DNA from: Escherichia coli
GTDB lineage: Bacteria > Pseudomonadota > Gammaproteobacteria > Enterobacterales > Enterobacteriaceae
Direction: 5' to 3' (one strand)
Assembly: GCF_003334305.1 (NCBI RefSeq)
Contig: NZ_QOWS01000002.1
DNA length: 64,000 bases
This document shows, in pieces, positions 3,627-60,715 of this stretch. The notes below the pieces were generated by a model that was not told the origin of the DNA, made no database searches, and was given only the letters and a program-made list of their open reading frames with translations. A program made the position numbers and the translations under genes. The stretch's first letter is position 1. Each line of letters starts with the position of its first letter.

Positions 3627-3640
3627 TAAGAATTTCTTTA

Positions 3641-3684
3641 CTGACAGGGTGAGCAGGGCACTTTTATCCTGTCAGTTCGTTTTA
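3641..3684 (+). terminator. Candidate terminator downstream of tdk
   Basis: 8 bp inverted repeat ctgacagg ... cctgtcag followed by ttcgtttta. Confidence 0.5.
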
Positions 3685-3875
3685 CGCACTTCTTCCGGGC
3701 TATATACCCTTCTCGGCAGTTTTTTAACGCCGCTATACGCCTCACAGGGCTCTTAAGCACCGACGTTGACTTGTGACCTGTAAAGTACAATATCCCTGTG
3801 TTTAGGCGTTATACATCGTCGCAAATATGATGAAGGCTAATGCTGTCGGTTTATGGAAAAGTTGCTTTGGGTAAA

Positions 3876-3902
3876 CAAAAAAACGGCCCCAGAAGGGGCC
3901 GT
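3876..3902 (-). terminator. Rho-independent terminator of adhE
   Basis: On the minus strand acggcccc-uucu-ggggccgu hairpin followed by a U7 run, immediately 3' of the adhE stop. Confidence 0.8.
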
Positions 3903-3927
3903 TTATATTGCCAGACAGCGCTACTGA

Positions 3928-7727: not shown

Positions 7728-8464
7728 TTCCTTTCAAATGAAACGGAGCTGCCATGCTCCGTTTACTTCGTCATTATTTTTACTTTGTTCCCGCGCAGTT
7801 ATCAAAAGCAAAAGGAATAGGTAAAAATATTCTTCTCAAATTACAGTTAGTTATAAGGATTTCCTTAACTGCTTCTCCTCACCATCATGTTATTTTCGCC
7901 ACATCATAATCCTGGGCTTGCTGAAGAATAATTGAAATGATATTAGTAATTCCACTGCCTTTGGTAGAGGAAAGTGCTAAATAATAATCAATTGTTAAAT
8001 TATTGTGCATTTCACTACTGGAACTGTAATCAGAAAAGATAGACATGCTTAGCCAATCTCTATTTGATTGAATTGAAAGATGTTTGTTAAGGCATGGATG
8101 CAAGCTATAGATTCTGATACGGTCAATAAAAGAGAATTGCTTAACAATTTTGCAAAATGTATTGGCGAGTAAGAACCGCATTTGGTACTTTCCGGGCAAC
8201 CGCCAGACGATTATTTATTGGTAATGAGAATAATTAACAATTAAAGAGCGTCGCGAAAGAATAATGTGTCTCGACAGGGGAGACACAGTACGAATCGACA
8301 TAAGGTGATCGTCTGAATCACCAGAATAAATAAAGTCGGTGATAGTAATACGTAACGATAAAGTAACCTGACAGCAGAAAGTCTCCGAGCCTGTGCAGGG
8401 TCCCAATCCGGGATTACACATGCTGGTTAATACCAGTAATTATAATGAGGGAGTCCAAAAAACA

Positions 8465-10096
8465 ATGACCAACATCACCAAGAGAAGTTTAGTAGCAGCT
8501 GGCGTTCTGGCTGCGCTAATGGCAGGGAATGTCGCGCTGGCAGCTGATGTACCCGCAGGCGTCACACTGGCGGAAAAACAAACACTGGTACGTAACAATG
8601 GTTCAGAAGTTCAGTCATTAGATCCGCACAAAATTGAAGGTGTTCCGGAGTCTAATATCAGCCGAGACCTGTTTGAAGGCTTACTGGTCAGCGATCTTGA
8701 CGGTCATCCAGCACCTGGCGTCGCTGAATCCTGGGATAATAAAGACGCGAAAGTCTGGACCTTCCATTTGCGTAAAGATGCGAAATGGTCTGATGGCACG
8801 CCAGTCACAGCACAAGACTTTGTGTATAGCTGGCAACGTTCTGTTGATCCGAACACTGCTTCTCCGTATGCCAGTTATCTGCAATATGGGCATATCGCCG
8901 GTATTGATGAAATTCTTGAAGGGAAAAAACCGATTACCGATCTCGGCGTGAAAGCTATTGATGATCACACATTAGAAGTCACCTTAAGTGAACCCGTTCC
9001 GTACTTCTATAAATTACTTGTTCACCCATCAACTTCACCGGTGCCAAAAGCCGCTATCGAGAAATTCGGCGAAAAATGGACCCAGCCTGGTAATATCGTC
9101 ACCAACGGTGCCTATACCTTAAAAGATTGGGTCGTAAACGAACGAATCGTTCTTGAACGCAGCCCGACCTACTGGAACAACGCGAAAACCGTTATTAACC
9201 AGGTAACCTATTTGCCTATTGCTTCTGAAGTTACCGATGTCAACCGCTACCGTAGTGGTGAAATCGACATGACTTATAACAACATGCCGATCGAATTGTT
9301 CCAGAAGCTGAAAAAAGAGATCCCGGACGAAGTTCACGTTGATCCATACCTGTGCACTTACTATTACGAAATTAACAACCAGAAACCGCCATTCAACGAT
9401 GTGCGTGTGCGTACCGCACTGAAACTAGGTATGGACCGCGATATCATTGTTAATAAAGTGAAAGCGCAGGGCGACATGCCCGCCTATGGTTACACTCCAC
9501 CGTATACTGATGGCGCAAAATTGACTCAGCCGGAATGGTTTGGTTGGAGCCAGGAAAAACGTAACGAAGAAGCGAAAAAACTGCTGGCTGAAGCGGGTTA
9601 TACCGCAGACAAACCGTTGACCATCAACCTGTTGTATAACACCTCCGATCTGCATAAAAAGCTGGCGATTGCTGCCTCTTCATTGTGGAAGAAAAACATT
9701 GGTGTAAACGTCAAACTGGTTAACCAGGAGTGGAAAACGTTCCTCGACACCCGTCACCAGGGTACTTTTGATGTGGCCCGTGCAGGCTGGTGTGCTGACT
9801 ACAACGAACCAACTTCCTTCCTGAACACCATGCTTTCGAACAGCTCGATGAATACCGCGCATTATAAGAGCCCGGCCTTTGACAGCATTATGGCGGAAAC
9901 GCTGAAAGTGACTGACGAGGCGCAGCGCACAGCTCTGTACACTAAAGCAGAACAACAGCTGGATAAGGATTCGGCCATTGTTCCTGTTTATTACTACGTG
10001 AATGCGCGTCTGGTGAAACCGTGGGTTGGTGGCTATACCGGCAAAGATCCGCTGGATAATACCTATACCCGGAATATGTACATTGTGAAGCACTAA
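8465..10096 (+). CDS. oppA: Periplasmic oligopeptide-binding protein OppA (precursor)
   Basis: ORF trimmed to MTNITKRSLVAAGVLAALMAGNVALA signal peptide (543 aa); family 5 substrate-binding protein; first gene of an oppABCDF cluster. Confidence 0.93.
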   Translation: MTNITKRSLVAAGVLAALMAGNVALAADVPAGVTLAEKQTLVRNNGSEVQSLDPHKIEGVPESNISRDLFEGLLVSDLDGHPAPGVAESWDNKDAKVWTFHLRKDAKWSDGTPVTAQDFVYSWQRSVDPNTASPYASYLQYGHIAGIDEILEGKKPITDLGVKAIDDHTLEVTLSEPVPYFYKLLVHPSTSPVPKAAIEKFGEKWTQPGNIVTNGAYTLKDWVVNERIVLERSPTYWNNAKTVINQVTYLPIASEVTDVNRYRSGEIDMTYNNMPIELFQKLKKEIPDEVHVDPYLCTYYYEINNQKPPFNDVRVRTALKLGMDRDIIVNKVKAQGDMPAYGYTPPYTDGAKLTQPEWFGWSQEKRNEEAKKLLAEAGYTADKPLTINLLYNTSDLHKKLAIAASSLWKKNIGVNVKLVNQEWKTFLDTRHQGTFDVARAGWCADYNEPTSFLNTMLSNSSMNTAHYKSPAFDSIMAETLKVTDEAQRTALYTKAEQQLDKDSAIVPVYYYVNARLVKPWVGGYTGKDPLDNTYTRNMYIVKH

Positions 10097-10181
10097 TGGC
10101 AATACGTGGGGCAGGAGTGTCCTGCTCCACGGTGTCTGATTTTTATCGCATTACAGAAGGCACAGGCCAGAAGGTAGGGCA

Positions 10182-12036: not shown

Positions 12037-13050
12037 ATGAGCGTAATTGAAACTGCAACTGTGCCGCTCGCACAACAACAGGCTGACGCACTGCTGAACG
12101 TGAAAGATTTGCGTGTCACCTTTAGTACCCCGGACGGCGACGTCACGGCGGTCAATGATTTGAATTTTTCCCTACGTGCCGGAGAAACGCTGGGTATTGT
12201 AGGTGAGTCTGGTTCGGGTAAATCGCAAACTGCATTTGCGTTGATGGGCCTGTTGGCTGCCAACGGACGTATTGGCGGATCGGCAACCTTCAATGGGCGT
12301 GAAATCCTCAATTTGCCAGAGCATGAACTCAATAAACTGCGCGCTGAACAAATCTCAATGATTTTTCAGGACCCAATGACTTCGTTGAATCCCTATATGC
12401 GCGTCGGTGAGCAGTTAATGGAAGTGCTGATGCTGCATAAGAACATGAGCAAAGCTGAGGCGTTTGAAGAGTCGGTGCGGATGCTCGATGCGGTAAAAAT
12501 GCCGGAAGCGCGTAAACGCATGAAAATGTACCCGCACGAATTTTCTGGCGGCATGCGTCAGCGAGTCATGATTGCGATGGCATTGCTATGTCGACCTAAG
12601 CTACTGATTGCGGATGAACCCACTACTGCGCTGGACGTCACCGTACAGGCGCAGATCATGACGCTATTAAATGAACTGAAGCGGGAATTTAATACCGCCA
12701 TCATTATGATCACCCACGATCTTGGCGTGGTGGCGGGGATCTGCGACAAAGTGCTGGTAATGTACGCCGGGCGCACGATGGAATATGGCAATGCGCGCGA
12801 TGTCTTTTATCAACCCGTTCATCCTTATTCTATCGGTTTGCTCAACGCGGTGCCGCGTCTTGATGCGGAAGGTGAAACAATGTTGACCATCCCGGGTAAT
12901 CCGCCAAACTTGCTGCGATTACCGAAAGGTTGCCCGTTCCAGCCACGTTGTCCACATGCGATGGAAATTTGTAGTAGCGCACCGCCGCTGGAAGAGTTTA
13001 CGCCTGGCCGTCTGCGTGCTTGCTTTAAACCGGTGGAGGAACTGTTATGA
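12037..13050 (+). CDS. oppD: Oligopeptide ABC transporter ATP-binding protein OppD
   Basis: 337 aa; Walker [12 protein letters not shown] signature LSGGMRQR, C-terminal oligopeptide Cys motif. Confidence 0.95.
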   Translation: MSVIETATVPLAQQQADALLNVKDLRVTFSTPDGDVTAVNDLNFSLRAGETLGIVGESGSGKSQTAFALMGLLAANGRIGGSATFNGREILNLPEHELNKLRAEQISMIFQDPMTSLNPYMRVGEQLMEVLMLHKNMSKAEAFEESVRMLDAVKMPEARKRMKMYPHEFSGGMRQRVMIAMALLCRPKLLIADEPTTALDVTVQAQIMTLLNELKREFNTAIIMITHDLGVVAGICDKVLVMYAGRTMEYGNARDVFYQPVHPYSIGLLNAVPRLDAEGETMLTIPGNPPNLLRLPKGCPFQPRCPHAMEICSSAPPLEEFTPGRLRACFKPVEELL

Positions 13051-20945: not shown

Positions 20946-21301
20946 GCACTCTCCTTGAGTTTTATGCAGGTGTTAATTAGCGGGCAATTGTACCCTGGTT
21001 AAGCCTCGGGTGGCAGCATCAGGTCTTGTATGGAAAAGCATATCTTTGTAAAGCGGAGGTAATTGCTGGCCTTCAGGCGTGGGCAAACCGCGGCAAGTGG
21101 CGAACGAGTTAATATTTGCGTAGCGAAAATATTTAAAAATTGATTTAAATCACGTTAACCAGGATTCTCAATGCAACTTCTAAATTAATCCAGATCAATA
21201 AATGGTGAATTATCATATGTAATGTGATCTATGTAGGATCATTTGTTACTCCAATGTAGGTATATTCGTCACGTTTTTATAACCATAACGACGGAGCGGA
21301 T

Positions 21302-23697: not shown

Positions 23698-24504
23698 TTA
23701 ACTGCGCGTCGCCGCTTTCATCGGTTGTACAAAAACTTTCAGTGCCGCCAGCATTTTCTCTGGCTCATTAATATGTTGCTCGATGATTTTAACAATGGCC
23801 GAACCAGAAATCGCGCCCGCAGCTCCTGCATCAATCGCTGCTTTTACCTGATCCGGGGCGGAAATACCAAACCCCTGCAATGGAGGTGCAGCGTTGTACT
23901 CTTTCAGCTTCGCAACCAGATGATTGAGGGGTAACGCGGCGCGGTTTTCTGCGCCGGTCACGCCCGCTCGTGACAGCAAATAGGTGTAACCACGACCGTA
24001 AGAGGCTATCTGGCGCAGCAGGTCGTCATCGGCATTTGGCGGGCAGATGAAGATAGGTGCGACATTATGGCGCAACGCGGCCTGGCGGAAGGGCGCGGAC
24101 TCTTCAATTGGCACATCGGCAACCAGCACCGAATCGACGCCGACTTTCTCGCACTGGGCATAAAACTCATCAATGCCTTTGTTAAACACCAGATTGGCAT
24201 ACATCAACAGGCCAATGGGAATGGTCGGGTGTTTCTGGCGAATCAGTGCCAGCATTTCAAAACATTGTGCCGGAGTCACACCTGCCGCAAAGGCGCGCAG
24301 AGTGGCGTTTTGAATGGTCGGGCCATCCGCCAGTGGGTCGGAGAAGGGGATACCTAACTCCAGCGCGTCAGCACCGGCTTCAATTAGCGTATCGATAATT
24401 TTCAATGACTGCTCAATGCCCGGATCACCGAGCGTGACGAAAGGAACGAATGCGCCTTCTTTGCGCTCCTTCAACTGGGCAAACAGAGATTCGTAGCGTT
24501 CCAT
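23698..24504 (-). CDS. trpA: Tryptophan synthase alpha subunit
   Basis: 268 aa [60 protein letters not shown]... Confidence 0.97.
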
Positions 24505-25708: not shown

Positions 25709-27070
25709 TTAATATGCGCGCAGCGTCTGGAAAACCGAGGCCAAAAGACGTGCGTCTTTGATGCCCGGTTGCGACTCTACAGCAGAATTAAAATCAAGTC
25801 CGGCGCAGCCGGTTTGTGCCGCTTCCACGCAGTTATCTGCGCCTAAGCCCCCCGCCAGCAGAACGTTGCCAAGCGATTGACCATTTAATAGTGACCAGTC
25901 AAAACGTTGCCCGCTTCCACCCTGGCCGTTGTCTAAAACATATTTATCAACGTGCTGAAACTCGCGGGCGGGCAGGGTTTCACCGACGCTTAATGCTTTC
26001 CAGATGGCAACATGTGCTGGCAGAGCTTCACGCAGCGTATCGATATACAGCTGTTCTTCATTACCATGCAGTTGCACTGCCGCCAGCGATAACACCTTAG
26101 CTTTGTCCACCACATCGGCAATATCGTGATTGCGGAACACGCCAACATACTGCAACGGTGCCGCAGCCATCACTTCCTGCGCCTGTTCAACGTTGACGCA
26201 ACGCGGTGATGTCGCAACAAAAATCAACCCACCGTAAATCGCGCCCGCGTCATAAGCTGCTTTAGCATCTTGCCCACGCGTCAGGCCACATACTTTATTC
26301 TCACCCAGCAACACCCGGCGCACGGCGGCGTGCAAATCGTCATGGGCCATCAACGCCGAACCAATCAGAAAACCGTTAGCGAAGTGGCTTAACTCGCGCA
26401 CCTGAGCGTAAGTATTGATGCCGGATTCGCTGATTACCGTCACGTTGTGCCCCAGTTTCGGCGCAAGCTCGCGGGTACGGTTGAGATCAATCGACAAATC
26501 ACGCAGATCGCGGTTGTTGATGCCAACGACCTTTGCCCCCAATGCAATGGCACGCTCCAGTTCCTCTTCATTACTGACTTCGGTCAGCACACCCATCTCC
26601 AGACTGTGGGCGACGGCGGCAAGCTGGCGATATTGTTCGTCATCCAGTACTGAAAGCATTAATAAGCAGGCATCAGCCTGGTAATAGCGCGCCAGATAGA
26701 TCTGGTAAGGATCGATAATGAAGTCTTTACATAAAATCGGCTGCGGGGCGATTTGGCTGACGATGGGGAGGAAATCAAAGCTCCCCTGAAAATATTTCTC
26801 ATCAGTCAGCACCGAAATTGCCGAAGCGTAATGTTTATAAATGGCGGCAATGCGTGCTGGATCGAAATCATCACGGATCACGCCTTTTGACGGCGACGCT
26901 TTCTTGCACTCCAGAATAAACGCCGTGCGCGCACCCTGTAGCGCATCATAAAAATGTCGCGTGCTCGGCTGAACCTCATTCTGAAAACTGGCCAGCGGTT
27001 GCTGCTGTTTGCGGGTTTCTACCCAAATCGCCTTGTCTGCGACGATTTTCGCTAAAACGGTTTGCATCAT
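25709..27070 (-). CDS. trpC: Bifunctional indole-3-glycerol-phosphate synthase / phosphoribosylanthranilate isomerase
   Basis: 453 aa ORF, position and length match TrpC(F). Confidence 0.96.
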
Positions 27071-28666
27071 TTACCCTCGTGCCGCCAGTGCGGTAACTCT
27101 GTCGTAAGCGGAACCACTGCGCAGTACCTCAAGAACGGTTTGCGCATTGGCTTGCAGATCTTCATGGCCATGCAGGCGCATTAACATGGCGACGTTCGCA
27201 GCGACGGCTGCTTCATGGGCGGCGTCGCCTTTACCTTGTAACAAGCGTGTTAAAATGTCACGGTTTTCTTCCGGTGTTCCGCCTGCCAGTTGCTCCTGGT
27301 GGTAGGGAGTCAGGCCAAAATCTTCAGCGGTCAATTGATAGCTCTTAATTTCGCCGTCATGCAGCTCGGCAACGATTGTCGGCGCGTGTAATGAAACTTC
27401 ATCCATCCCGCCGCTGTGCACCACCGCCGCGCGTTGATACCCCAGCACGCGCAAGGTTTCGGCAATCGGCAGCACCAGTTCCGGACTATAAACACCAATT
27501 AACGCCAGCGGCGGATGCGCCGGGTTAATCAATGGCCCCAGCACATTGAACAGGGTGCGGGTTTTCAGTTGCTGGCGAACCGGCATCGCGTGGCGGAATC
27601 CGGTGTGATACTTCGGCGCAAAGAGGAAACATACACCTAACTCATCCAGCGCCTGGCGCGATTTATCGGCGTTCATATCAAGATTAATACCGAACGCCGC
27701 CAGCAGATCGGACGAACCAGATTTACTGGAGACGCTACGGTTGCCGTGTTTCGCCACTTTCAGCCCACAGGCCGCGGCGACAAACGCACTGGCGGTAGAA
27801 ATATTGATACTGTTGCTGCCGTCACCGCCAGTACCGACGATATCAGCAAACAGATAATCCGGGCGCGGGAACGGCGCGGCGTTTTCCAGTAGCGCGGTTG
27901 CTGCTCCGGCGATCTCGTTCGGGTGCTCACCGCGAATTTTCATGCTCACCAGCGCCGCCGCCAGTTGTTCCGGCTTCAGCTCGCCACGCACCACCGCTGA
28001 AAACAGCTGGTGGCTTTCTTGTTGGCTAAGCGTCTGCGCCTGATACAGTTTTTCCAGAATCGGTTGCAGCGTGTTGGCTGGCTCTAGTTTCTGCTGCGCC
28101 CAGGCCAGCGTTTGTTCCAGCAGGCGAGCGCCCTGGGTGGTGAGAATGGATTCCGGATGGAACTGGAATCCACAAACGCGATCCGCATCGTGACGTACTG
28201 CCATCACCATGCCATTAAAATGGGCGTTGATGGTTAAACCGGCCGGAATGTTACTGCCAACCAGCGAGTGATAACGCGCCACCGGCAGCGGGTTTGTTAA
28301 TCCGGCAAACATCGCCTGACCGTCATGTTCAATGCTCGACGCTTTACCGTGAAGAATTTCGCCCGCCTGACCGACATACCCCCCATAAGCTTCGACAATC
28401 GCCTGATGACCGAGGCAAATGCCAATAATGGGCAGCTTGCCACGCAAGCGGGTGAGGAGTTCCGGCATACAACCGGCTTCGCTCGGCACACCGGGGCCAG
28501 GAGAAAGCATCAGTACCGGATTGCTCATCGTCGCCAGGCGTTCAATTAAGGTCTGCGCCGGAATATGGTTGCGGTAAATCACCACATTATGCCCATTGCT
28601 GCGCAACTGATCTGCCAGGTTGTACGTAAAAGAGTCGATATTATCGAGCAGCAGAATGTCAGCCAT
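27071..28666 (-). CDS. trpD: Anthranilate synthase component II / anthranilate phosphoribosyltransferase
   Basis: 531 aa [25 protein letters not shown]... with glutamine amidotransferase and PRT domains. Confidence 0.96.
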
Positions 28667-30228
28667 CAGAAAGTCTCCTGTGCATGATGCGCGGTGGCAA
28701 TAGCGCGCAGTACAGCGCGGGCTTTATTACGGGTTTCGTCGGCTTCCGACTGCGGAACAGAATCAAGGACTACGCCAGCACCGGCTTGCACGGTGGCGAT
28801 ACCGTTTTCCACCAGCGCCGAGCGGATCACAATGCAGGTGTCGAGATCGCCATGCGCGGTGAAATAACCTACCGCGCCGCCGTAGCTGCCGCGGCGACGA
28901 CCTTCCGCCTCGGCAATTAACTGCATGGCGCGCACTTTCGGCGCACCGCTTAACGTCCCCATATTCATACAGGCGCGGTAAGCGTGTAGGGCGTCGAGAT
29001 CGTGGCGCAGTTCACCGACCACGCGGGAGACCAGGTGCATCACGTAAGAGTAACGGTCAACTTTGGTGAGGTCGGCGACGTAGCGGCTGCCGGGGGTGCA
29101 AATGCGTGCCAGATCATTACGGGCAAGATCCACCAGCATCAGATGTTCAGAAAGCTCTTTATGATCGGTACGCATTTCCAGTTCGATGCGGCTGTCGAGG
29201 TCTCTGTCCAGCGAGCCATCGGCACGACGACCGCGTGGACGTGTTCCGGCAATCGGGTAGATCTCAATCTGGCGGCTGGTGGCGTCATACTTGAGCGAAC
29301 TTTCCGGCGACGCGCCAAACAGGGTGAAATCATTATCCTGCATAAAAAACATGTACGGGCTGGGATTACTCTTTTTCAGCACGTAATAGGCCGCCAGCGG
29401 TGACGGGCAGGGCAGAGAGAAACGGCGAGATGGCACCACCTGGAAAATTTCTCCAGCGCGAATCGCTTTTTGCAACAAACGCACTACGCCACCGAACTCT
29501 TCATCGCTCTGATTACATTCACAACGCATATGCGGCACGGAAACCACCGGCAGCGGCGGCGCGGCTTCGGTCAGTTGCTGACGTAGTTCGTTCAGGCGAG
29601 CAGTGAGACGTTGTTTTTCTTCTTCATTCGGAGCAAACAGGCTGGCCTGAATACGGGTGCTTTTTTTCTGATGGTCAATCACCATCAGAGTTTCAGCGAG
29701 ATAAAAACAGAAATCAGGGCAGTTATTTTCCGCTGACAGTTGCGGTAAATCTTCAAATCCCGCCACAAGGTCATAAGAGAACAGGCCGCCGAAGAACATT
29801 GCTTCTCGTTCTTCCTTCGGTACATTCAACAGATTCTGCAATAAACGGAAAGCGTCAAAAACCGAAAGGGAGCATAAGCGAGCGTCTTCATCCAGCAGTG
29901 GACTGACAGGGGGGAAGCGCAGCACACGGCAGTTTGGTGATTGTTCATTTTCCACACCCGCAGGCAGGGCGTTATCCAGTAGTGTCAGCAGGGCTTCGCC
30001 GTTGCCGGAAAGTGCCTGGATTGTGACAGTGTCACCTAAAGCTGTAATGCGCAGCGCACTGTCTACCAGCAGCAGGCTTTTTAAATCATCTTTGCTGTCG
30101 ATATCTGCGGATTCCAGCAGCAGCGTTGCCGGACGATCCCCACACAACTGGTGAAAAAGCGCGGTGGGATTGTCGCGATAAGCGCCTTCGCAGGTTAGCA
30201 GTTCGAGAGTCGGTTTTTGTGTTTGCAT
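28666..30228 (-). CDS. trpE: Anthranilate synthase component I
   Basis: 520 aa [64 protein letters not shown]...; 1 nt overlap with trpD. Confidence 0.97.
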
Positions 30229-30250
30229 TGTTATTCTCTAATTTTGTTCA

Positions 30251-30280
30251 AAAAAAAGCCCGCTCATTAGGCGGGCTGGG
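30251..30280 (-). promoter_or_regulatory. trp attenuator terminator (3:4 hairpin plus U-run)
   Basis: Plus strand aaaaaaagcccgctcattaggcgggct, i.e. on the transcript agcccgccuaaugagcgggcuuuuuuu, between trpL and trpE. Confidence 0.95.
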
Positions 30281-30319
30281 TATCTGATTGCTTTACGCAT
30301 GGTGAATACACTGCCCGTT

Positions 30320-30364
30320 TCAGGAAGTGCGCCACCAACCTTTCAGTACGAAAATTGCTTTCAT
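30320..30364 (-). CDS. trpL: trp operon leader peptide (14 aa, tandem Trp codons)
   Basis: Reverse complement reads atgaaagcaattttcgtactgaaaggttggtggcgcacttcctga = [14 protein letters not shown]. Confidence 0.95.
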
Positions 30365-30501: not shown

Positions 30502-31383
30502 TTGAGCGACACGAATTATGCAGTGATTTACGACCTGCACAGCCATACCACAGCTTCCGATGGCTGCCTGACGCCAGAAGCATTGGTGCACCGTGCAGTC
30601 GAGATGCGCGTCGGCACCCTGGCGATCACCGACCATGACACCACAGCTGCAATCGCGCCAGCAAGAGAGGAAATTTCACGTTCGGGACTGGCGTTGAATC
30701 TTATTCCCGGCGTGGAAATTTCCACGGTCTGGGAAAATCATGAAATTCATATTGTCGGGCTGAATATTGATATTACTCATCCGCTAATGTGTGAGTTCCT
30801 CGCGCAGCAGACAGAACGGCGCAATCAGCGGGCGCAGCTGATTGCCGAAAGACTTGAAAAAGCGCAAATACCTGGGGCGCTGGAAGGCGCACAACGACTG
30901 GCGCAGGGCGGCGCAGTGACGCGCGGTCATTTTGCGCGTTTCCTTGTTGAGTGCGGCAAAGCCAGTTCAATGGCGGATGTCTTTAAAAAGTATCTGGCGC
31001 GCGGGAAAACCGGATACGTTCCGCCACAGTGGTGTACAATAGAACAAGCTATTGATGTCATTCATCATTCTGGCGGTAAGGCGGTGCTAGCTCATCCTGG
31101 GCGGTACAATCTTAGTGCTAAATGGCTGAAAAGATTGGTTGCGCATTTTGCCGAACACCACGGTGACGCGATGGAAGTCGCGCAGTGCCAGCAATCGCCC
31201 AATGAACGTACCCAGCTGGCGGCCCTTGCGCGTCAGCATCATTTATGGGCATCACAAGGATCTGATTTTCATCAGCCATGCCCGTGGATCGAACTGGGTC
31301 GTAAACTCTGGCTGCCCGCAGGCGTTGAAGGCGTCTGGCAGCTATGGGAACAGCCGCAGAACACCACAGAGAGGGAATTATGA
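30502..31383 (+). CDS. trpH: PHP-domain 5'-3' exoribonuclease TrpH / YciV (RNase AM)
   Basis: 293 aa ORF with TTG start, MSDTNYAVIYDLHSHTTASDG... PHP metal-binding motifs. Confidence 0.9.
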   Translation: MSDTNYAVIYDLHSHTTASDGCLTPEALVHRAVEMRVGTLAITDHDTTAAIAPAREEISRSGLALNLIPGVEISTVWENHEIHIVGLNIDITHPLMCEFLAQQTERRNQRAQLIAERLEKAQIPGALEGAQRLAQGGAVTRGHFARFLVECGKASSMADVFKKYLARGKTGYVPPQWCTIEQAIDVIHHSGGKAVLAHPGRYNLSAKWLKRLVAHFAEHHGDAMEVAQCQQSPNERTQLAALARQHHLWASQGSDFHQPCPWIELGRKLWLPAGVEGVWQLWEQPQNTTEREL

Positions 31384-32000: not shown

Positions 32001-32100
32001 GTGCGTAACTCTGTATACTACGCGGCCTTAAAATGGCGCTATACGGCGCCATTGATTCTCCTGTTCGACGCCTGTGAAGGCGACACTAAAAGGAAGCTCT

Positions 32101-33012: not shown

Positions 33013-33603
33013 TTAGTAATCAATCCCTATCTGCGCTTTTACACCGGCATCAAACGCATGTTTGACGGGGCGTAATTCACTTACCGTATCTGCCAGTTCA
33101 AGAATATCCCGATGACAACCACGACCCGTGATAATCACCGTCTGTTGATGTGGACGTTCATTTAACGCCTGCACCACTTCTTCCAGTGGCAAATAGTCAT
33201 ACGCCACCATATACGTCAGTTCATCAAGCAAAACCATATCCAGTGAGGAATCAGCAAGCATCCGCTTTGCATGTTGCCAGACTTCGCGGCAGGCGGCGGT
33301 ATCAGACTCGCGGTTTTGTGTATCCCAGGTAAAGCCCGTTGCCATCACCTGAAACTCAACGCCATGTGGCTCCAGCAGATTGCGTTCGCCATTAGGCCAG
33401 GTGCCTTTAATAAACTGCACGACGCCTACTTTTTTTCCGTGACCAACTGCGCGTGTTGCCGTACCAAATGCCGCGGTGGTTTTGCCTTTTCCATTGCCGG
33501 TAAAGACGATGATAATACCGCGTTCATCCTGGGCCTGGGCCACACGAGCATCTACTTTTTCTTTCACTCGCTGCTGACGCTGTTGGTAGCGTTCATCACT
33601 CAT
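33013..33603 (-). CDS. btuR: Cob(I)yrinic acid a,c-diamide adenosyltransferase
   Basis: 196 aa ORF with P-loop GNGKGKTTAAFG. Confidence 0.93.
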   Translation of the reverse strand: MSDERYQQRQQRVKEKVDARVAQAQDERGIIIVFTGNGKGKTTAAFGTATRAVGHGKKVGVVQFIKGTWPNGERNLLEPHGVEFQVMATGFTWDTQNRESDTAACREVWQHAKRMLADSSLDMVLLDELTYMVAYDYLPLEEVVQALNERPHQQTVIITGRGCHRDILELADTVSELRPVKHAFDAGVKAQIGIDY

Positions 33604-40704: not shown

Positions 40705-41076
40705 TTATCATCATTCTTATTACCCATTTTTAATGAATTAAAGGGCTTTTAATACACCGCAGCAATAACAGCTTGAGTTATCTCAACACAAAATAATAAC
40801 CGTTAAGGGTGTAGCCTATGATCAACACAAATATGAAATATTGGTCCTGGATGGGCGCGTTTTCTCTGTCGATGCTCTTCTGGGCCGAACTCCTCTGGAT
40901 CATTACTCACTGATCCTTGACCCCGCTGCGGCGGGGTTGTCATTTGCTTTGCCACAAGGTTTCTCCTCTTTTATCAATTTGGGTTGTTATCAAATCGTTA
41001 CGCGATGTTTGTGTTATCTTTAATATTCACCCTGAAGAGAATCAGTGCTTCGCAACCCTGTCATTAAGGAGGAGCT

Positions 41077-47165: not shown

Positions 47166-47903
47166 ATGACGTTAACTGCTTCATCTTCTTCCCGCGCTGT
47201 TACGAATTCTCCTGTGGTTGTTGCCCTTGATTATCATAATCGTGATGACGCGCTGTCCTTTGTCGACAAGATCGACCCACGCGATTGTCGTCTGAAGGTC
47301 GGCAAAGAGATGTTTACATTGTTTGGGCCACAGTTTGTGCGCGAACTTCAACAGCGTGGTTTTGATATCTTTCTTGACCTGAAATTCCACGATATTCCTA
47401 ACACTGCTGCGCACGCTGTCGCTGCTGCAGCTGACTTAGGCGTGTGGATGGTGAATGTTCATGCCTCTGGTGGGGCGCGTATGATGACCGCAGCGCGTGA
47501 GGCACTGGTTCCGTTTGGCAAAGATGCACCGCTTTTGATTGCTGTGACAGTGTTGACCAGCATGGAAGCCAGCGACCTGGTCGATCTTGGCATGACACTG
47601 TCACCTGCAGATTATGCAGAACGTCTGGCGGCACTGACGCAAAAATGTGGCCTTGATGGTGTGGTGTGTTCTGCTCAGGAAGCTGTGCGCTTTAAACAGG
47701 TATTCGGTCAGGAGTTCAAACTGGTTACGCCGGGCATTCGTCCGCAGGGGAGTGAAGCTGGTGACCAGCGCCGCATTATGACGCCAGAACAGGCGTTGTC
47801 GGCTGGTGTTGATTATATGGTGATTGGTCGCCCGGTAACGCAATCGGTAGATCCAGCGCAGACGCTGAAAGCGATCAACGCCTCTTTACAGCGGAGTGCA
47901 TGA
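47166..47903 (+). CDS. pyrF: Orotidine-5'-phosphate decarboxylase
   Basis: ORF trimmed to [38 protein letters not shown] (245 aa); catalytic [10 protein letters not shown] motif. Confidence 0.93.
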
Positions 47904-48229
47904 TGAGTGATTCCAACAGCCGTCTGGTCTACTCAACGGAAACCGGACGTATTGATGAGCCCAAAGCGGCCCCTGTACGCCCTAAAGGCGACGGTGTGGT
48001 GCGTATTCAGCGTCAGACCAGTGGACGTAAAGGTAAGGGCGTTTGCCTGATTACCGGTGTCGATCTCGATGATGCCGAACTGACAAAACTTGCAGCGGAA
48101 CTGAAGAAAAAATGCGGCTGCGGCGGAGCAGTTAAAGATGGAGTTATTGAAATCCAGGGCGATAAGCGTGATTTATTAAAATCACTACTTGAAGCGAAAG
48201 GGATGAAGGTAAAACTCGCAGGTGGTTAA
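47900..48229 (+). CDS. yciH: SUI1/eIF1-like translation factor YciH
   Basis: About 108 aa ORF overlapping the pyrF stop (ATGA); start could be either of the two adjacent ATGs. Confidence 0.9.
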
Positions 48230-50000: not shown

Positions 50001-51986
50001 TTATGCGCGCTTCAGATAGCGTTTATACCAGCGTTCGAAGGCGACGGCGGGCATCGGTTTGGCAAACAAAAATCCTTGCCGCTCATTGATCCCGTTCTTG
50101 GTTAAAAAAGCATCTTCCTTTGCACTCTCTACACCTTCGGCGATCACCTGAAGATTCAATGCCTGGGCCACAGCGACGATCGCCCGGACCAGTGACTGCG
50201 AGACAGGTTGTTTGTGAATATCTCGAACAAAAACCTGGTCAAGTTTGATGGCATCGATCGGAAAGCGCGCCAGTTGCGAAAGTGAAGAGTAGCCGGTACC
50301 AAAATCATCCAGATGCACTTGCGCACCTAGTTGGCTAAATTGTTGAATAACAGACAGTGCCAGTTCATCATTCTCAATCAGACAACTCTCTGTCAGTTCA
50401 ACATCTATAGGGCAGTATTCAAAATTGAGTTCCTGGAGAACCTGTTTCAGGGCGGTGAAAATGGTTTGATCGGCGAGCTGACGTGCAGAAATATTTACCG
50501 CCACTCGCAGGTTAATACCTTTATCCCGCCACTTCGCCACCTGGCGTACGACATCGAGAATCACCCAACGGCCTAAAGGCACAATTAGCCCTGACTCTTC
50601 GGCGTAGGAAATGAAGTCCAACGGTGGAATCAACCCACGTTCAGGTGACTGCCAACGTACTAGTGCTTCCAGACTGCGCACTTCGCCACGCCAGGTGATT
50701 TTCGGTTGATAGTGAATAACCAACTGATCGTTTTCCAGTGCTTTACGCAAGTTGGTATCCAGCCAGAGATATTCAAATACCCGTTGATTCATTTCTGGGG
50801 TAAAAACGCAAAATTGTCCTCGTCCGCCTTCCTTCGCTGTGTACATTGCTGTGTCGGCGTGACGAATAATAGCCGTGCTGTCTGAACCATGTTCGGGAGA
50901 GAGTGCAATACCTACTGAACAGCTGGTATAAACTTCAATTAAACCAATGCGAAAGGGGAGCCGTAAGCGGGTCAAAATTCGTGATGCCATTGCTTCCAGC
51001 GCGCTTTGTGAGGTGTTGGATGCCAGTACCAGAAACTCATCGCCACCTGGACGCGCCAACACCTGGTCATGTTCGAGACAGCTTAAAATAGCCAATGACA
51101 CGTCGCGTAATAACTGGTCACCAAACAAATGCCCATAGGCGTCGTTGACCTTTTTGAAATTATCCAAATCAAGATACACAACCCCAACTTTATTGTTATC
51201 TGCATGATTAATAGCGTGATCGATTAAATCCTGCATTGCGTTACGATTCGGCAGTCCGGTGATACTGTCGGTATTTGCCAGAATACGCAGTCGCTCCTGA
51301 GCGCGGCGCTCTTCGGTAATGTCGGTGCCGGAACAGATTAAAAAAATCTCGTTTTTGCCACTGCCGCTGTGGACAAATTTATTGCGAAACAGAAACAGCC
51401 GCTGGCCTTTACGTGTTGGTATCCACAGTTCGACTTCATATGCATTGCCGCTTCGAAAAAATACACGGTTATTGCGCCTGGATGCCGCAGCTTCACGACG
51501 GCTCATAAACAGTTTAAACACGCTTTGGCCAATGACGTCGTGTTCTTTCAACCCAGTGTAATCTTCACATAACCGATTGAAGCGTTGGATATTCCCCCGG
51601 CTGTCGAGAATCACTATTGCGGAATGTGCTTCAGAAACTACCTGCTCAGCAAAGGAAAGCCCGTGTGATAAATCACGAGCAACCGCCGGTGTGTCATGCC
51701 ATGCAGACGCGTTGCCAGCCCATTCCCGTTTATTGATTTTTCGTCCTACCAGATGCACAGAAAGATCGCTTTCATCGACGGTCAGACTCATCATCAGGCT
51801 GGAGGTGATGACCGTCATTTCCCTGATGCGAGCAGCCTGTTCGGCAGATAACTGCAATGTACGATCAGGTTCTGTGGTTTCGGTGGTAGAAAAGCGCAAA
51901 ACATCGCTGCTTTCCGTCAACCGCCAGTATGGATTGTGCGATCCGAGAAAGTTGTACAACGTTGTGGACTCCCTAACGGTTTTCAT
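50001..51986 (-). CDS. pdeR: c-di-GMP phosphodiesterase PdeR (PAS-GGDEF-EAL)
   Basis: 661 aa ORF with PAS region, GGDEF-type domain (GGDEF) and EAL domain (EALVRW). Confidence 0.93.
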   Translation of the reverse strand: MKTVRESTTLYNFLGSHNPYWRLTESSDVLRFSTTETTEPDRTLQLSAEQAARIREMTVITSSLMMSLTVDESDLSVHLVGRKINKREWAGNASAWHDTPAVARDLSHGLSFAEQVVSEAHSAIVILDSRGNIQRFNRLCEDYTGLKEHDVIGQSVFKLFMSRREAAASRRNNRVFFRSGNAYEVELWIPTRKGQRLFLFRNKFVHSGSGKNEIFLICSGTDITEERRAQERLRILANTDSITGLPNRNAMQDLIDHAINHADNNKVGVVYLDLDNFKKVNDAYGHLFGDQLLRDVSLAILSCLEHDQVLARPGGDEFLVLASNTSQSALEAMASRILTRLRLPFRIGLIEVYTSCSVGIALSPEHGSDSTAIIRHADTAMYTAKEGGRGQFCVFTPEMNQRVFEYLWLDTNLRKALENDQLVIHYQPKITWRGEVRSLEALVRWQSPERGLIPPLDFISYAEESGLIVPLGRWVILDVVRQVAKWRDKGINLRVAVNISARQLADQTIFTALKQVLQELNFEYCPIDVELTESCLIENDELALSVIQQFSQLGAQVHLDDFGTGYSSLSQLARFPIDAIKLDQVFVRDIHKQPVSQSLVRAIVAVAQALNLQVIAEGVESAKEDAFLTKNGINERQGFLFAKPMPAVAFERWYKRYLKRA

Positions 51987-57072: not shown

Positions 57073-57879
57073 TTAGCGATCTTTACGCCACGCATCCGCC
57101 GTCAATGCCTCGCCAAAATGACCGGCAATCAGCCGTTTGGTGAGTTCATGCAGCGGCGATGCCAGCACATCCGCGGTGCTGCCTCGCTCGACAACCTCGC
57201 CCTGATGCATCACCAGCACCTGGTCGCTAATGTGCTTCATCATTCCGATATGCTGGGTAACATAAATATACGAAATGCCCTGTTTTTCCTGTAACTCCAG
57301 CATCAGATTAATCAACTGCGAACGCATCGACATATCCAGTGAAGCGAGGGCTTCATCGGCAATAATGACTTTTGGGCGCAATATCAGCGCGCGCGCCAGA
57401 CCCAGACGCTGTTTTTGTCCGGGTGCCAACATATGCGGATAGTAACTGACGTGATCCGGTAGCAGCCCAACCATACGCATCGTTTCAATAATCTGTTTGC
57501 GACGCTGTTCCGGTTCCAGGTCGGTGTTCAGGCGCAGTGGAAAATCCAGAATTTGCGAGATACGTTGACGGGGATTCAACGAGGTCGAAGGATCCTGAAA
57601 AATCATGCGAATACGCTGACTGCGGAAGGAATAATCGCCAAAATGCAGTGGATGATCGTCAATCAATAACTCGCCGCTGGTAGGCTCTATCATTCCCGCC
57701 AGCATTTTTGCCAGCGTGGATTTACCCGAACCATTCTCGCCAATAATCGCCAGTGTCTGGCCTTCACGTAGCGTAAAGCTCAAGGGTTTTACCGCTTCTA
57801 CGGTCTGACGACGAAACCAGCCGGTCCGGTAGCGGAACGTTTTACTTAAATTACGCACTTCAAGCAGCGTTTCGATCAT
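57073..57879 (-). CDS. sapF: Peptide/putrescine ABC transporter ATP-binding protein SapF
   Basis: 268 aa ORF, Walker A GENGSGKST; last gene of the sap cluster. Confidence 0.94.
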   Translation of the reverse strand: MIETLLEVRNLSKTFRYRTGWFRRQTVEAVKPLSFTLREGQTLAIIGENGSGKSTLAKMLAGMIEPTSGELLIDDHPLHFGDYSFRSQRIRMIFQDPSTSLNPRQRISQILDFPLRLNTDLEPEQRRKQIIETMRMVGLLPDHVSYYPHMLAPGQKQRLGLARALILRPKVIIADEALASLDMSMRSQLINLMLELQEKQGISYIYVTQHIGMMKHISDQVLVMHQGEVVERGSTADVLASPLHELTKRLIAGHFGEALTADAWRKDR

Positions 57880-57880
57880 C

Positions 57881-58873
57881 TCACTCTTTCTCCATGTTCA
57901 GCGGGAAATGACAGGCATAGAGATGATTTTTCGCCCCCGTCAAACGTGGCGTCACAATGCATTCTCGTTGTGCATACGGGCAACGTGGCCCCAGACGACA
58001 ACCAATCGGTAACTGTTCCAGCAGTGGGATAGCGCCGGGCAGCGTATTGAGGCGACTTTTATGCGGCATCGCGCTGCCGAAGTCTGGTATCGCGCGGATC
58101 AGCGCCTGGGTATAAGGATGATGTGGCATCGTCACCAACTCCTTACTCGGCGCGGTTTCCACTGTTTGACCGCAGTAAAGCACGTTAATTTTATCCGCCC
58201 ATTGGCTAAGCATTTGTAAGTCATGGCTGATAAGCAAAATAGTGGTATTGCTGTTTTGGTTGAGACGCGTCAGCAGGCGAAAGATTTGCGCCTGGGTTGT
58301 TGGCTCCATTGAGTTGGTCGGTTCGTCAGCAATCAGCAGACGCGGTTGATTCGCCAGTGCAATGGCTATCATCACTTTCTGACATTCACCTTCGGTCAAC
58401 TCATAGGGAAAACTGCGCATCGCATCTTTGTGATCTTTAATCCCCACGCGGTGCAGCAGTTCAATGGCACGGCGTTTGCGCCAGCCAAAACGCTGCCACC
58501 AACGGCCTTTATAGGTCCAGGCTGGGATGTTTTGCATCAACTGGCGACCCACACGTTCTGAAGGGTCAAGACACGACTGCGGTTCCTGGAAAATCATCGA
58601 CACGTTATGGCCAACCAGTTTGCGCCGTTCGCGTGCGGAGAGACGCAGCAAATCGATATCATCAAAACGCATACGGTCAGCAGTAACACGCCAGTTATCT
58701 TTATTCACCCCACAAATCGCTTTCGCAATCAAACTCTTGCCGGAACCGGATTCACCAACAAGACCGCGGATTTCACCTTCGGTTAAGGTCATACTTACCC
58801 GGTCGACGGCTTTAACCCACTCATCACCGGTTTTAAATTCAATGGTCAGGTTACGAATATCGAGTAATGGCAT
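57881..58873 (-). CDS. sapD: ABC transporter ATP-binding protein SapD
   Basis: 330 aa ORF, Walker A GESGSGKS. Confidence 0.94.
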
Positions 58874-59763
58874 TATTCCACCCCCGCAATAATCGCACGA
58901 CGAACGCCATCGCCAAGGAGGTTAACCAACAACACGCTAATCATAATTGCCGCACCTGGCAGCATGACAGTCCACGGGGCGACATAAATCAGTTCCAGCG
59001 CATCACCGAGCATCGCTCCCCATTCAGGCGAGGGGAGTTGTGCGCCGAGATCGAGAAAGCCCAGCGCGGCGATATCGAGAATTGCCATCGACAGTGCGCG
59101 GGTGATCTCGGTGACCAGCCCGGCGGTGATGTTTGGCATCACAGCAAACCAGAGAATATTCAGCGTTGATGCGCCATCCAGACGGGCGGCGATAACGTAC
59201 TCTTTTTCCAGTTCGTCATGCACCATGCTGTAAATCGAACGTACCATACGCGGCAGCAATGCCAGCCAGACAGCAAACATAGCGTGGGACAAACTCGGTC
59301 CGGCAAACGCTACAACGATAATTGCCAGCAGCAGCGAAGGGATCGCCAGTAAGGTATCCAGAATATGGTTAAGCACCGCTGAGCGTAGGCCGTGCGTCGC
59401 CCCGGCGAAGGTGCCCAGTACCAGGCCACAGATCGTCGCGGCAAGCGTCACCACAAATGCGCCACCCACGGTTGGCGCAGCTCCGCTCAGTAAACGGCTT
59501 AAAACATCGCGTCCGAGGTCGTCAGTCCCCAGGAAGAAAGAAACTTCGCCATAGCGCGACCATGACGGCGGCAATAATTGGTAACCGAGAAATTGCTGGT
59601 CGATGCCGTAAGGCGCAAACCAGCCGCCAAAAATACACAGTACAGCCAGCCCCGCGCAGCCGTACAGGCCGACCATCGCAGAGGCGTCACTATAAAATTT
59701 GCGCCAGGCGGTACGCAGCGTGCCCGGCGGGCGCTTTTCGCTGTATACGCTATCGTAAGGCAT
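58873..59763 (-). CDS. sapC: ABC transporter permease SapC
   Basis: 296 aa multi-TM ORF; 1 nt overlap with sapD. Confidence 0.93.
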
Positions 59764-60715
59764 ACCATTCCTTATGTTTCAGAGGGTTAGCCATGGCACC
59801 CAAAATATCAGAAATCACGTTAACAATAATGACCAGTGAGCCACACACCATCACTCCGGCGGAAATGGCTGCGTAATCCTGCTGGCGGATGGCGTTAATT
59901 AACCAGCGCCCTAAACCCGGCCAGCTAAAAACCATTTCGGTGATCATCGCCAGCGTCAGCATGGTGGAAAACTGTAAGCCCAGGCGAGGAATAACCGGCG
60001 GTAACGCGTTATGCAGAACGTGGCGACGCAAAATAGTAAAGCGCGACAAACCGCGGGTAGCCGCCGCTTTAACATAGTTCTGGTCATACACTTCGATAGT
60101 GCTGATACGCATCAGTCGGATCACTTCAGTTGTTGGCGCAACCGACAGGGTGATCACGGGCAATATCATATGGCGGATTGCGCTCATGATCATTTCATCC
60201 CGCCATGGTGAGTCCGAAAGCCAGGCATCAATCAACGCAAACCCGGTAATCGGTTTCACTTCGTAGAGCAGATCGAAACGCCCTGAAACGGGCAACCAAC
60301 CTAGCGTGAGTGAACAAAACAGCGTCAACAGAAGCGCCAGCCAGAACACCGGGATTGAAAAGCCCAGCAAGGCGATGGCGTTGATCAAGTTATCCTGCCA
60401 CTTATGGCGCGTAATCCCGGCAATCATCCCCACGGGGATGCCAACAATCAGCGCAAAACCGAAGGCGAGGATGCACAGTTCCATCGTCGCAGGGAAGACC
60501 TCTTTTAACTGTTCGGCAATCGGTTGACCGTTAATGCTGGAAACACCAAAATCCCAGTGGATCAGGCCGTTAAACCAGAACACCCAGGCATTCCACAGTG
60601 ACGCGCCTTGTAACGGCGCGTGTGGAGTGAAATAGCTCAAACTGAAGCCAACGAAGGTCAGCAGGAACAAGGTGACAATCAATAACAAAATGCGGCGTAA
60701 GGTGAAGATAATCAT
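59750..60715 (-). CDS. sapB: ABC transporter permease SapB
   Basis: 321 aa multi-TM ORF; overlaps sapC by 14 nt and sapA by 4 nt. Confidence 0.93.

What the first reader, a model, noticed from the sequence alone, without database searches (positions are those of the whole stretch)
13047..13050. Pervasive stop/start overlaps consistent with translational coupling
ATGA-type or 1 nt overlaps occur at oppD/oppF, trpE/trpD, trpB/trpA, trpH/yciO, btuR/yciK, pyrF/yciH, sapD/sapC, sapC/sapB (14 nt) and sapB/sapA. All are expected operon architecture, which supports the gene calls and argues against frameshift artefacts in the sequence.
Basis: seen in the sequence. Interest (0 to 1): 0.1.

Follow-up and report, generated by a model that had tools for sequence, protein, structure and literature searches.

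The report
Ordinary stop/start overlaps between operon genes
The nine places where one gene's stop codon overlaps the next gene's start codon are real, but they are the normal junctions of well-known E. coli operons (opp, trp, sap and others), a textbook arrangement that lets ribosomes pass from one gene to the next.

Summary
They are oppD>oppF ATGA at 13047-13050, trpE>trpD and trpB>trpA TGATG, rnm(trpH)>yciO, yciK>btuR and sapA>sapB ATGA, pyrF>yciH ATGATG, sapC>sapD TAATG, and sapB>sapC 14 nt. No same-strand overlap was missed.

The pattern is non-random. Eight of the 16 same-strand junctions within +/-20 nt sit exactly at -4 or -1, and all nine downstream starts have a Shine-Dalgarno motif inside the upstream gene.

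It is not unusually dense: 12 of 42 same-strand pairs lie at -8..+6, against 24% genome-wide in K-12.

The oppD/oppF overlap is kept in 80 of 80 gammaproteobacterial species examined, while neighbouring opp junction spacings and the protein termini vary.

Translational coupling has been shown experimentally only for trpE/trpD and trpB/trpA. For the other seven pairs it is a reasonable inference, not a demonstrated fact, because published E. coli tests show that some overlapping pairs are not coupled.

The "no frameshift artefact" conclusion is right, but it rests on sequence identity and intact genes, not on the overlaps.

Verdict: already known, low interest.

The parts
13047..13050 (+). oppD stop / oppF start, ATGA (4-nt overlap)
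   Evidence: Sequence; annotation; junction table. Conserved as an overlap in 80 of 80 species.
13035..13039 (+). GGAGG Shine-Dalgarno motif for oppF, inside the last codons of oppD
   Evidence: Sequence. Anti-SD duplex -9.3 kcal/mol. A G-rich motif is retained across 80 species, median -9.3, although the encoded OppD residues change.
28664..28668 (-). trpE stop / trpD start, TGATG (1-nt overlap at 28666)
   Evidence: Coupling shown experimentally by Oppenheim and Yanofsky 1980, as described in PMC12548453.
24502..24506 (-). trpB stop / trpA start, TGATG (1-nt overlap at 24504)
   Evidence: Coupling shown by Aksoy et al. 1984 and Das and Yanofsky 1984/1989, cited in PMC5318159 and PMC12548453.
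31380..31383 (+). rnm (trpH) stop / yciO start, ATGA (4-nt overlap)
   Evidence: SD -7.0 kcal/mol. An alternative ATG 36 nt upstream has a weak SD of -3.8.
33600..33603 (-). yciK stop / btuR (cobO) start, ATGA (4-nt overlap)
   Evidence: This is the weakest SD of the nine, -4.3 kcal/mol.
47900..47905 (+). pyrF stop / yciH start, ATGATG. The annotated start at 47903 gives a 1-nt overlap; the in-frame ATG at 47900 would give 4 nt.
   Evidence: K-12 translation efficiencies are pyrF 1.089 and yciH 1.065.
58871..58875 (-). sapC stop / sapD start, TAATG (1-nt overlap at 58873)
   Evidence: SD -9.9 kcal/mol.
59750..59763 (-). sapB stop / sapC start, ATGCCTTACGATAG (14-nt overlap)
   Evidence: The next in-frame start codon is 87 nt downstream and has no SD.
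60712..60715 (-). sapA stop / sapB start, ATGA (4-nt overlap)
   Evidence: SD -6.9 kcal/mol.
27068..27073 (-). trpD stop / trpC start abutting with no gap (TAAATG). Not an overlap, but within the range where coupling is efficient.
   Evidence: Spacing range.
57877..57883 (-). sapD stop / sapF start separated by 1 nt (TGAGATG)

Best explanation
These are the normal cistron junctions of known E. coli operons: oppABCDF, trpLEDCBA, rnm-yciO, yciK-btuR, pyrF-yciH and sapABCDF.

At each junction the downstream start codon shares 1, 4 or 14 nt with the end of the upstream gene, and a Shine-Dalgarno motif lies inside the last codons of the upstream gene. The most likely working is as follows. A ribosome terminating on the upstream gene is already at the downstream start. 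It is held there by SD/anti-SD pairing and reinitiates, or at least melts local structure so that another ribosome can initiate. Downstream translation therefore depends on and tracks upstream translation.

This suits pairs whose products assemble 1:1: OppD/OppF, TrpE/TrpD, TrpB/TrpA and the Sap transporter subunits.

What is shown: the geometry, the SD motifs, conservation of the oppD/oppF junction, and (from the literature) coupling at trpE/trpD and trpB/trpA. What is inferred: coupling at the other seven junctions, and which sub-mechanism operates (reinitiation or RNA unfolding).
For: - Geometry and gene calls are confirmed against RefSeq and K-12.
- Spacing is sharply concentrated at -4 and -1: 8 of 16 close junctions, p about 3e-7.
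- The nine overlapped starts have anti-SD duplex energies averaging -7.2 kcal/mol. Other annotated starts average -5.8, random coding positions -2.0, and the 3' ends of genes without an overlapping partner -2.3 (p = 4e-6).
- The oppD/oppF overlap is present in 80 of 80 species of Enterobacterales, Vibrionaceae and Pasteurellaceae: 77 ATGA and 3 TAATG, with median SD -9.3. This holds despite 37 different OppD C-terminal hexapeptides and 61 different OppF N-terminal heptapeptides. In the same loci oppC>oppD spacing ranges from -29 to +72 and oppB>oppC from +9 to +29.
- K-12 ribosome profiling gives near-equal ribosome density for oppD (259.8) and oppF (276.7), against oppC (161.1) and oppB (130.4). 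The pyrF and yciH translation efficiencies are 1.089 and 1.065.
- Literature: coupling was first shown for trpE/trpD and also for trpB/trpA. Four of five E. coli ATGA pairs tested were coupled. Coupling is most efficient at -4 to +3 nt. -4 and -1 are the commonest spacings in E. coli and across 1,695 species, and are enriched among subunits of heteromeric complexes.
Against: - No experiment bears directly on seven of the nine pairs.
- bioBF, an E. coli ATGA pair, showed no coupling.
- Genome-wide, overlapping pairs vary in relative translation efficiency about as much as non-overlapping ones.
- All nine downstream genes have SD motifs strong enough for independent initiation.
- Reported coupling efficiency falls as overlaps lengthen, so the 14-nt sapB/sapC overlap may couple poorly.
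- rnm/yciO, yciK/btuR and pyrF/yciH are not known to form complexes, so the stoichiometry rationale does not apply to them.
- Predicted accessibility of the ribosome-binding site does not separate overlapped starts from leading-gene starts (p = 0.32).
Confidence: 0.85

Rival explanations
1. The overlaps reflect genome compaction only. They arose by neutral drift of stop and start positions in tightly packed operons, and each downstream gene is translated by independent de novo initiation at its own Shine-Dalgarno site, with no dependence on the upstream gene.
For: - All nine downstream starts carry SD motifs as strong as or stronger than stand-alone genes.
- bioBF behaves this way.
- Translation-efficiency ratios of overlapping pairs are as variable as those of non-overlapping pairs.
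Against: - trpE/trpD and trpB/trpA are experimentally coupled.
- oppD/oppF stays at -4 or -1 in 80 of 80 species while the flanking peptide termini and the two neighbouring opp junction spacings drift. Neutral drift would not give that.
- 4 of 5 tested E. coli ATGA pairs are coupled.
Confidence: 0.12
2. Coupling occurs, but through RNA unfolding rather than reinitiation. The downstream ribosome-binding site is sequestered in secondary structure with upstream coding sequence, and it is exposed to fresh 30S subunits only when a ribosome translates to the end of the upstream gene.
For: - This is one of the two models the 2025 review regards as open.
- Predicted probability that -15..+5 is unpaired is low for several overlapped starts: sapD 2e-7, trpD 2e-5, oppF 4e-5.
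Against: - As a group the nine starts are not less accessible than leading-gene starts (median log10 -3.67 against -3.29, p = 0.32). They tend to be more accessible than random coding sites (-4.86, p = 0.07).
- The sharp preference for exactly -4 and -1, and the strong distance dependence in reporters, fit a ribosome handed over at the stop codon better.
Confidence: 0.3
3. The overlaps are annotation artefacts. The true downstream start codons lie further downstream, so the genes do not really overlap.
For: - Start-codon calls are predictions for most of these genes.
- yciO has had its K-12 protein record revised several times (NP_415783.6).
- yciH and trpC have tandem ATG codons.
Against: - For oppF, trpD, trpA, btuR, sapD, sapC and sapB the annotated start is the first start codon in the open frame. 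The next candidate is 27-87 nt downstream with essentially no SD, 0.3 to -3.8 kcal/mol.
- The yciH alternatives are -4 or -1, which are both overlaps.
- K-12 and PGAP annotations agree.
- An oppF start at the overlap is available in all 80 species.
Confidence: 0.02

Closest known systems
Translational coupling at trpE/trpD and trpB/trpA of the E. coli trp operon (Oppenheim and Yanofsky 1980; Aksoy, Squires and Squires 1984; Das and Yanofsky 1984, 1989)
   Same: Two of the nine junctions are these very sites, with the same TGATG motif and an upstream SD inside the preceding gene.
   Different: Nothing differs. The window carries the same sequence feature in another E. coli strain.
Termination-reinitiation at -4/-1 overlapping gene pairs in bacteria and archaea (Huber et al. 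2019, PMC6728339; Huber et al. 2023, PMC10666635)
   Same: - ATGA or TGATG/TAATG geometry.
- An SD in the 3' end of the upstream gene.
- Enrichment among subunits of heteromeric complexes (OppD/F, TrpE/D, TrpB/A, Sap subunits).
- A genome-wide frequency matching what is seen in the window.
   Different: None of the window's pairs was among the E. coli pairs named (hyfHI, astDB, ydbH/ynbE, menDH, bioBF). The 14-nt sapB/sapC overlap lies outside the -8..+6 range those authors treat as efficient.
Non-coupled overlapping pair bioB/bioF
   Same: ATGA overlap within an operon.
   Different: bioF has a very weak SD yet is translated independently of bioB. The window's downstream genes all have recognisable SD motifs. 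Whether any of them behaves like bioF is untested.

Membership tests
Translationally coupled gene pair (termination-reinitiation type) | Two co-directional ORFs on one transcript | tested here: met
   All nine pairs are same-strand and overlapping, so no terminator can lie between them. opp, trp and sap are annotated as single operon-type clusters. That pyrF and yciH are co-transcribed is from my own knowledge and was not tested here.
Translationally coupled gene pair (termination-reinitiation type) | Stop-to-start spacing in the efficient range, about -4 to +3 nt | tested here: met
   Eight of nine pairs are at -4 or -1; the efficient range is given. sapB>sapC at -14 lies outside it, so this feature is not met for that pair.
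Translationally coupled gene pair (termination-reinitiation type) | Shine-Dalgarno motif for the downstream gene inside the 3' end of the upstream gene (contributory, not obligatory) | tested here: met
   Anti-SD duplex energies run from -4.3 to -9.9 kcal/mol, and 8 of 9 are at or below -6. Only 3.8% of random coding positions reach that.
Translationally coupled gene pair (termination-reinitiation type) | Downstream translation falls when upstream translation is blocked, independent of mRNA level | not testable with these tools
   Published for trpE/trpD and trpB/trpA only. No data were found for the other seven pairs. Near-equal ribosome density of oppD and oppF, and equal translation efficiency of pyrF and yciH, are compatible with coupling but not diagnostic.
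Translationally coupled gene pair (termination-reinitiation type) | Evolutionary retention of the overlap | tested here: met
   Tested for oppD/oppF only: 80 of 80 species keep -4 or -1, while the neighbouring junction spacings vary.

The most novel reading that the evidence does not exclude
The three overlapping pairs whose products are not known to interact (rnm>yciO, yciK>btuR, pyrF>yciH) might be strictly coupled because their products act together, for example the eIF1/SUI1-like YciH with PyrF, or the RNase Rnm with the YrdC-like YciO.

Separately, the 14-nt sapB>sapC overlap might use backward repositioning of the terminating ribosome. Nothing here excludes either idea, and nothing here specifically supports them.
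Probability: 0.1. Interest if true: 0.3.

Novelty: already known. Interest (0 to 1): 0.05.

Why it matters
It matters little beyond quality control. The overlaps confirm that the window is a well-behaved stretch of E. coli chromosome whose gene boundaries match the reference.

The one mildly useful by-product is a clean comparative illustration. The oppD/oppF overlap and its embedded Shine-Dalgarno motif are held fixed across three orders of gammaproteobacteria, while the encoded protein ends and the neighbouring junction spacings change. This is consistent with selection for matched synthesis of the two ATPase subunits of the transporter.

Tried and rejected
1. Using K-12 MG1655 or strain H15 as the coordinate reference. 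Both were rejected as non-collinear: K-12 has ISZ, IS5U and yciQ, and H15 has an island between yciO and rluB. Strain A7 is identical to the window and was used instead.

2. Predicted ribosome-binding-site accessibility (RNAplfold-type calculation) to separate RNA unfolding from reinitiation. The result was inconclusive: p = 0.32 against leading genes and p = 0.07 against coding background.

3. Absolute synthesis rates from Li et al. 2014 (PMC4006352), and the primary trp coupling papers (PMC215255, PMC1214269). None is held in the library. I relied on the Burkhardt et al. 2017 supplementary table and on secondary descriptions instead. The trp, sap, rnm, yciK and btuR genes are absent from that table, which lists only ORFs that pass its read-depth, length and mRNA-evenness filters.

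4. Mis-called start codons as an explanation. Rejected.

5. Cross-species tests of the other eight junctions.

Full report
**What is there**

Bases 13047-13050 read ATGA. TGA (13048-13050) ends a 337-codon ORF and ATG (13047-13049) opens a 334-codon ORF. A similarity search identified these as oppD and oppF of Escherichia coli.

K-12 MG1655 and strain H15 are not collinear with the window. K-12 carries ISZ, IS5U and yciQ, and H15 carries an island between yciO and rluB. Strain A7 (NZ_CP028767.1, 2142024-2206023) is identical at all 64000 positions, so its RefSeq annotation transfers base for base. All 64 complete annotated CDS are intact ORFs in the window.

**Checking the list**

From the annotation I computed every adjacent-gene junction. 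There are 42 same-strand pairs, and nine overlap.

| Pair (transcription order) | Spacing | Window position |
|---|---|---|
| oppD>oppF | -4 | 13047-13050 |
| trpE>trpD | -1 (TGATG) | 28666 |
| trpB>trpA | -1 (TGATG) | 24504 |
| rnm(trpH)>yciO | -4 | 31380-31383 |
| yciK>btuR(cobO) | -4 | 33600-33603 |
| pyrF>yciH | -1 as annotated | 47903 |
| sapC>sapD | -1 (TAATG) | 58873 |
| sapB>sapC | -14 | 59750-59763 |
| sapA>sapB | -4 | 60712-60715 |

The pyrF/yciH junction reads ATGATG, so a -4 start at 47900 is also possible. The sapB/sapC overlap was read directly. None was missed. K-12 has the same junctions and gene lengths.

Four further pairs nearly abut: trpD>trpC 0, sapD>sapF +1, ymiA>yciX +2 and lapA>lapB +6. 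Minus-strand pairs are named in reverse transcriptional order, and older gene names are used.

**Is it more than chance?**

Of the 16 same-strand junctions within +/-20 nt, eight fall exactly at -4 or -1. The binomial p is about 3e-7 against a uniform spacing.

A start codon in the -4 or -1 position is not rare in itself; it occurs at 12 of 68 annotated stops. In eight cases it opens an annotated ORF of 108-531 codons. In the other four (rssB, the hypothetical gene at 7885, oppA, sapD) it opens 30 codons or fewer.

For seven of the nine downstream genes the overlapping start is the first start codon in the open frame. The next candidate lies 27-87 nt downstream and has essentially no Shine-Dalgarno complementarity. 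The two exceptions are yciO, which has a weak upstream ATG at -40 (SD -3.8 against -7.0 kcal/mol), and yciH, which has tandem ATGs. The gene calls are therefore sound.

"Pervasive" is too strong. 12 of 42 pairs (29%) lie at -8..+6. The published K-12 figure is 707 of 2987 (24%), and the difference is not significant, p = 0.47.

**Anatomy of the junctions**

Each overlapped start is preceded by a Shine-Dalgarno motif inside the last codons of the upstream gene.

| Set of positions | Mean anti-SD duplex energy (kcal/mol) |
|---|---|
| Nine overlapped starts | -7.2 (range -4.3 to -9.9) |
| Other annotated starts in the window | -5.8 |
| Random coding positions | -2.0 |
| 3' ends of genes without an overlapping partner | -2.3 |

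The differences from the two background sets are significant, p = 5e-7 and p = 4e-6.

Predicted accessibility of the ribosome-binding site (probability that -15..+5 is unpaired) gave median log10 -3.67 for the nine. Leading genes gave -3.29 and coding background -4.86. Neither contrast is significant (p = 0.32 and 0.07), so this computation does not discriminate between the two proposed coupling mechanisms.

**Related sequences**

A scan of one genome per species with OppF returned 80 loci from Enterobacterales, Vibrionaceae and Pasteurellaceae, at 72-99% OppF identity. The patterns used for retrieval do not include the junction.

In all 80 loci the oppD stop overlaps an oppF start: 77 as ATGA and 3 as TAATG (Bisgaardia, Photobacterium, Spirabiliibacterium). 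The median SD energy is -9.3 kcal/mol, and 78 of 80 are at or below -6.

This holds although the loci carry 37 different OppD C-terminal hexapeptides and 61 different OppF N-terminal heptapeptides. The residues that encode the SD also change (VEE, QEE, VGE, VGD and others) while the G-rich run persists.

As an internal control, my heuristic start calls in the same loci put oppC>oppD spacing between -29 and +72 (mode +11) and oppB>oppC between +9 and +29 (mode +14). The juxtaposition of oppD and oppF is therefore specifically constrained. The other eight junctions were not tested across species.

**Expression data**

In Supplementary file 1 of Burkhardt et al. 2017 (E. coli K-12; PMC5318159) the values are:

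| Gene | Average ribosome density | Translation efficiency |
|---|---|---|
| oppA | 1504.9 | 1.881 |
| oppB | 130.4 | 0.472 |
| oppC | 161.1 | 0.419 |
| oppD | 259.8 | 0.546 |
| oppF | 276.7 | 0.667 |
| pyrF | 231.0 | 1.089 |
| yciH | 142.2 | 1.065 |

oppD and oppF are the best-matched neighbours in the opp operon. pyrF and yciH have equal translation efficiency. Both results are compatible with coupling, but neither proves it. The trp, sap, rnm, yciK and btuR genes are not in that table.

**How it most likely works**

Translational coupling was first demonstrated at trpE/trpD, with -1 spacing. Blocking trpE translation reduced trpD expression more than ten times as much as that of genes further downstream. 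It was also shown for trpB/trpA.

In dual-reporter tests of five native E. coli ATGA pairs, three were strictly coupled, one was about 60% coupled, and one (bioBF) was not coupled. Coupling is most efficient at -4 to +3 nt and falls off faster with longer overlaps than with longer gaps. SD motifs contribute to coupling but are not essential. Short overlaps are enriched among subunits of heteromeric complexes.

Two mechanisms remain open: reinitiation by the terminating ribosome, and unfolding of inhibitory structure.

On the other side, genome-wide ratios of translation efficiency are about as variable for overlapping pairs as for non-overlapping ones.

My reading is that the terminating ribosome is handed directly to the downstream start with help from the embedded SD. 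This is demonstrated for the two trp junctions. It is strongly suggested for oppD/oppF by conservation and matched ribosome density. It is plausible but untested for sapA-D, rnm/yciO, yciK/btuR and pyrF/yciH, and least certain for the 14-nt sapB/sapC overlap.

**The frameshift argument**

Its proper basis is the identity of the window to a finished genome and the intact, reference-length CDS. A sequencing frameshift near a gene end could as easily create a spurious overlap as destroy a real one.

**Verdict**

The feature is a textbook one and two of the nine sites are its founding examples. It is already known and of low interest.

Noticed in passing
window 32001-32100: yciQ (K-12 b1268, 1896 nt between yciO and rluB) is absent. 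Only 100 nt separate yciO from rluB. 1442 of 5426 complete E. coli genomes share this contiguous arrangement. Strain H15 instead has an island of about 8 kb with integrase and recombinase genes at the same spot.
   Followed up: partly
window 3627-3927 and 7728-8464: The K-12 insertion sequences ISZ (between tdk and adhE) and IS5U (between ychE and oppA) are absent. PGAP calls a 98-aa hypothetical protein at 7885-8181 (-) in the ychE-oppA gap.
   Followed up: no
window 47900-47905 and 27065-27073: Tandem in-frame ATG codons occur at two junctions. For yciH (ATGATG) the overlap with pyrF could be 4 nt or 1 nt. For trpC (TAAATGATG) the gap after trpD could be 0 or 3 nt. In both cases the SD sits 3 nt from the first ATG and 6 nt from the second, which would favour the second ATG. 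Annotation uses the second ATG for yciH but the first for trpC.
   Followed up: partly
window 50001-50019: The small gene ymiD (+) and pdeR (-) are convergent and overlap by 19 nt at their 3' ends. This is the only opposite-strand overlap in the window.
   Followed up: no
window 40745-40947 (+): Rfam sRNA family STnc180 matches at 198 bits and covers the annotated small-protein gene ymiC (40818-40913), upstream of acnA. The only other Rfam match is the Trp leader at 30250-30343 (-).
   Followed up: no
window 10094-10098: The oppA stop also forms TAATG, but the ATG opens only a 30-codon ORF in the 85-nt oppA-oppB spacer and into oppB. This is one of four chance stop/start motifs.
   Followed up: no
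window 31344-31346: An in-frame ATG 36 nt upstream of the annotated yciO start would give a 40-nt overlap with rnm. Its SD complementarity is weak, -3.8 against -7.0 kcal/mol.
   Followed up: partly
window 20973-21062 (-): PGAP marks a fragment of a YkgJ-family cysteine-cluster protein as a pseudogene just upstream of yciC. It is not annotated in K-12.
   Followed up: no
L078, L080, L086 around position 2500: In Bisgaardia hudsonensis, Photobacterium pectinilyticum and Spirabiliibacterium pneumoniae the oppD/oppF junction has changed from ATGA to TAATG (-4 to -1), so the overlap persists in a different form. The two Rodentibacter species (L084, L085) have ATGATG, which allows either form.
   Followed up: partly
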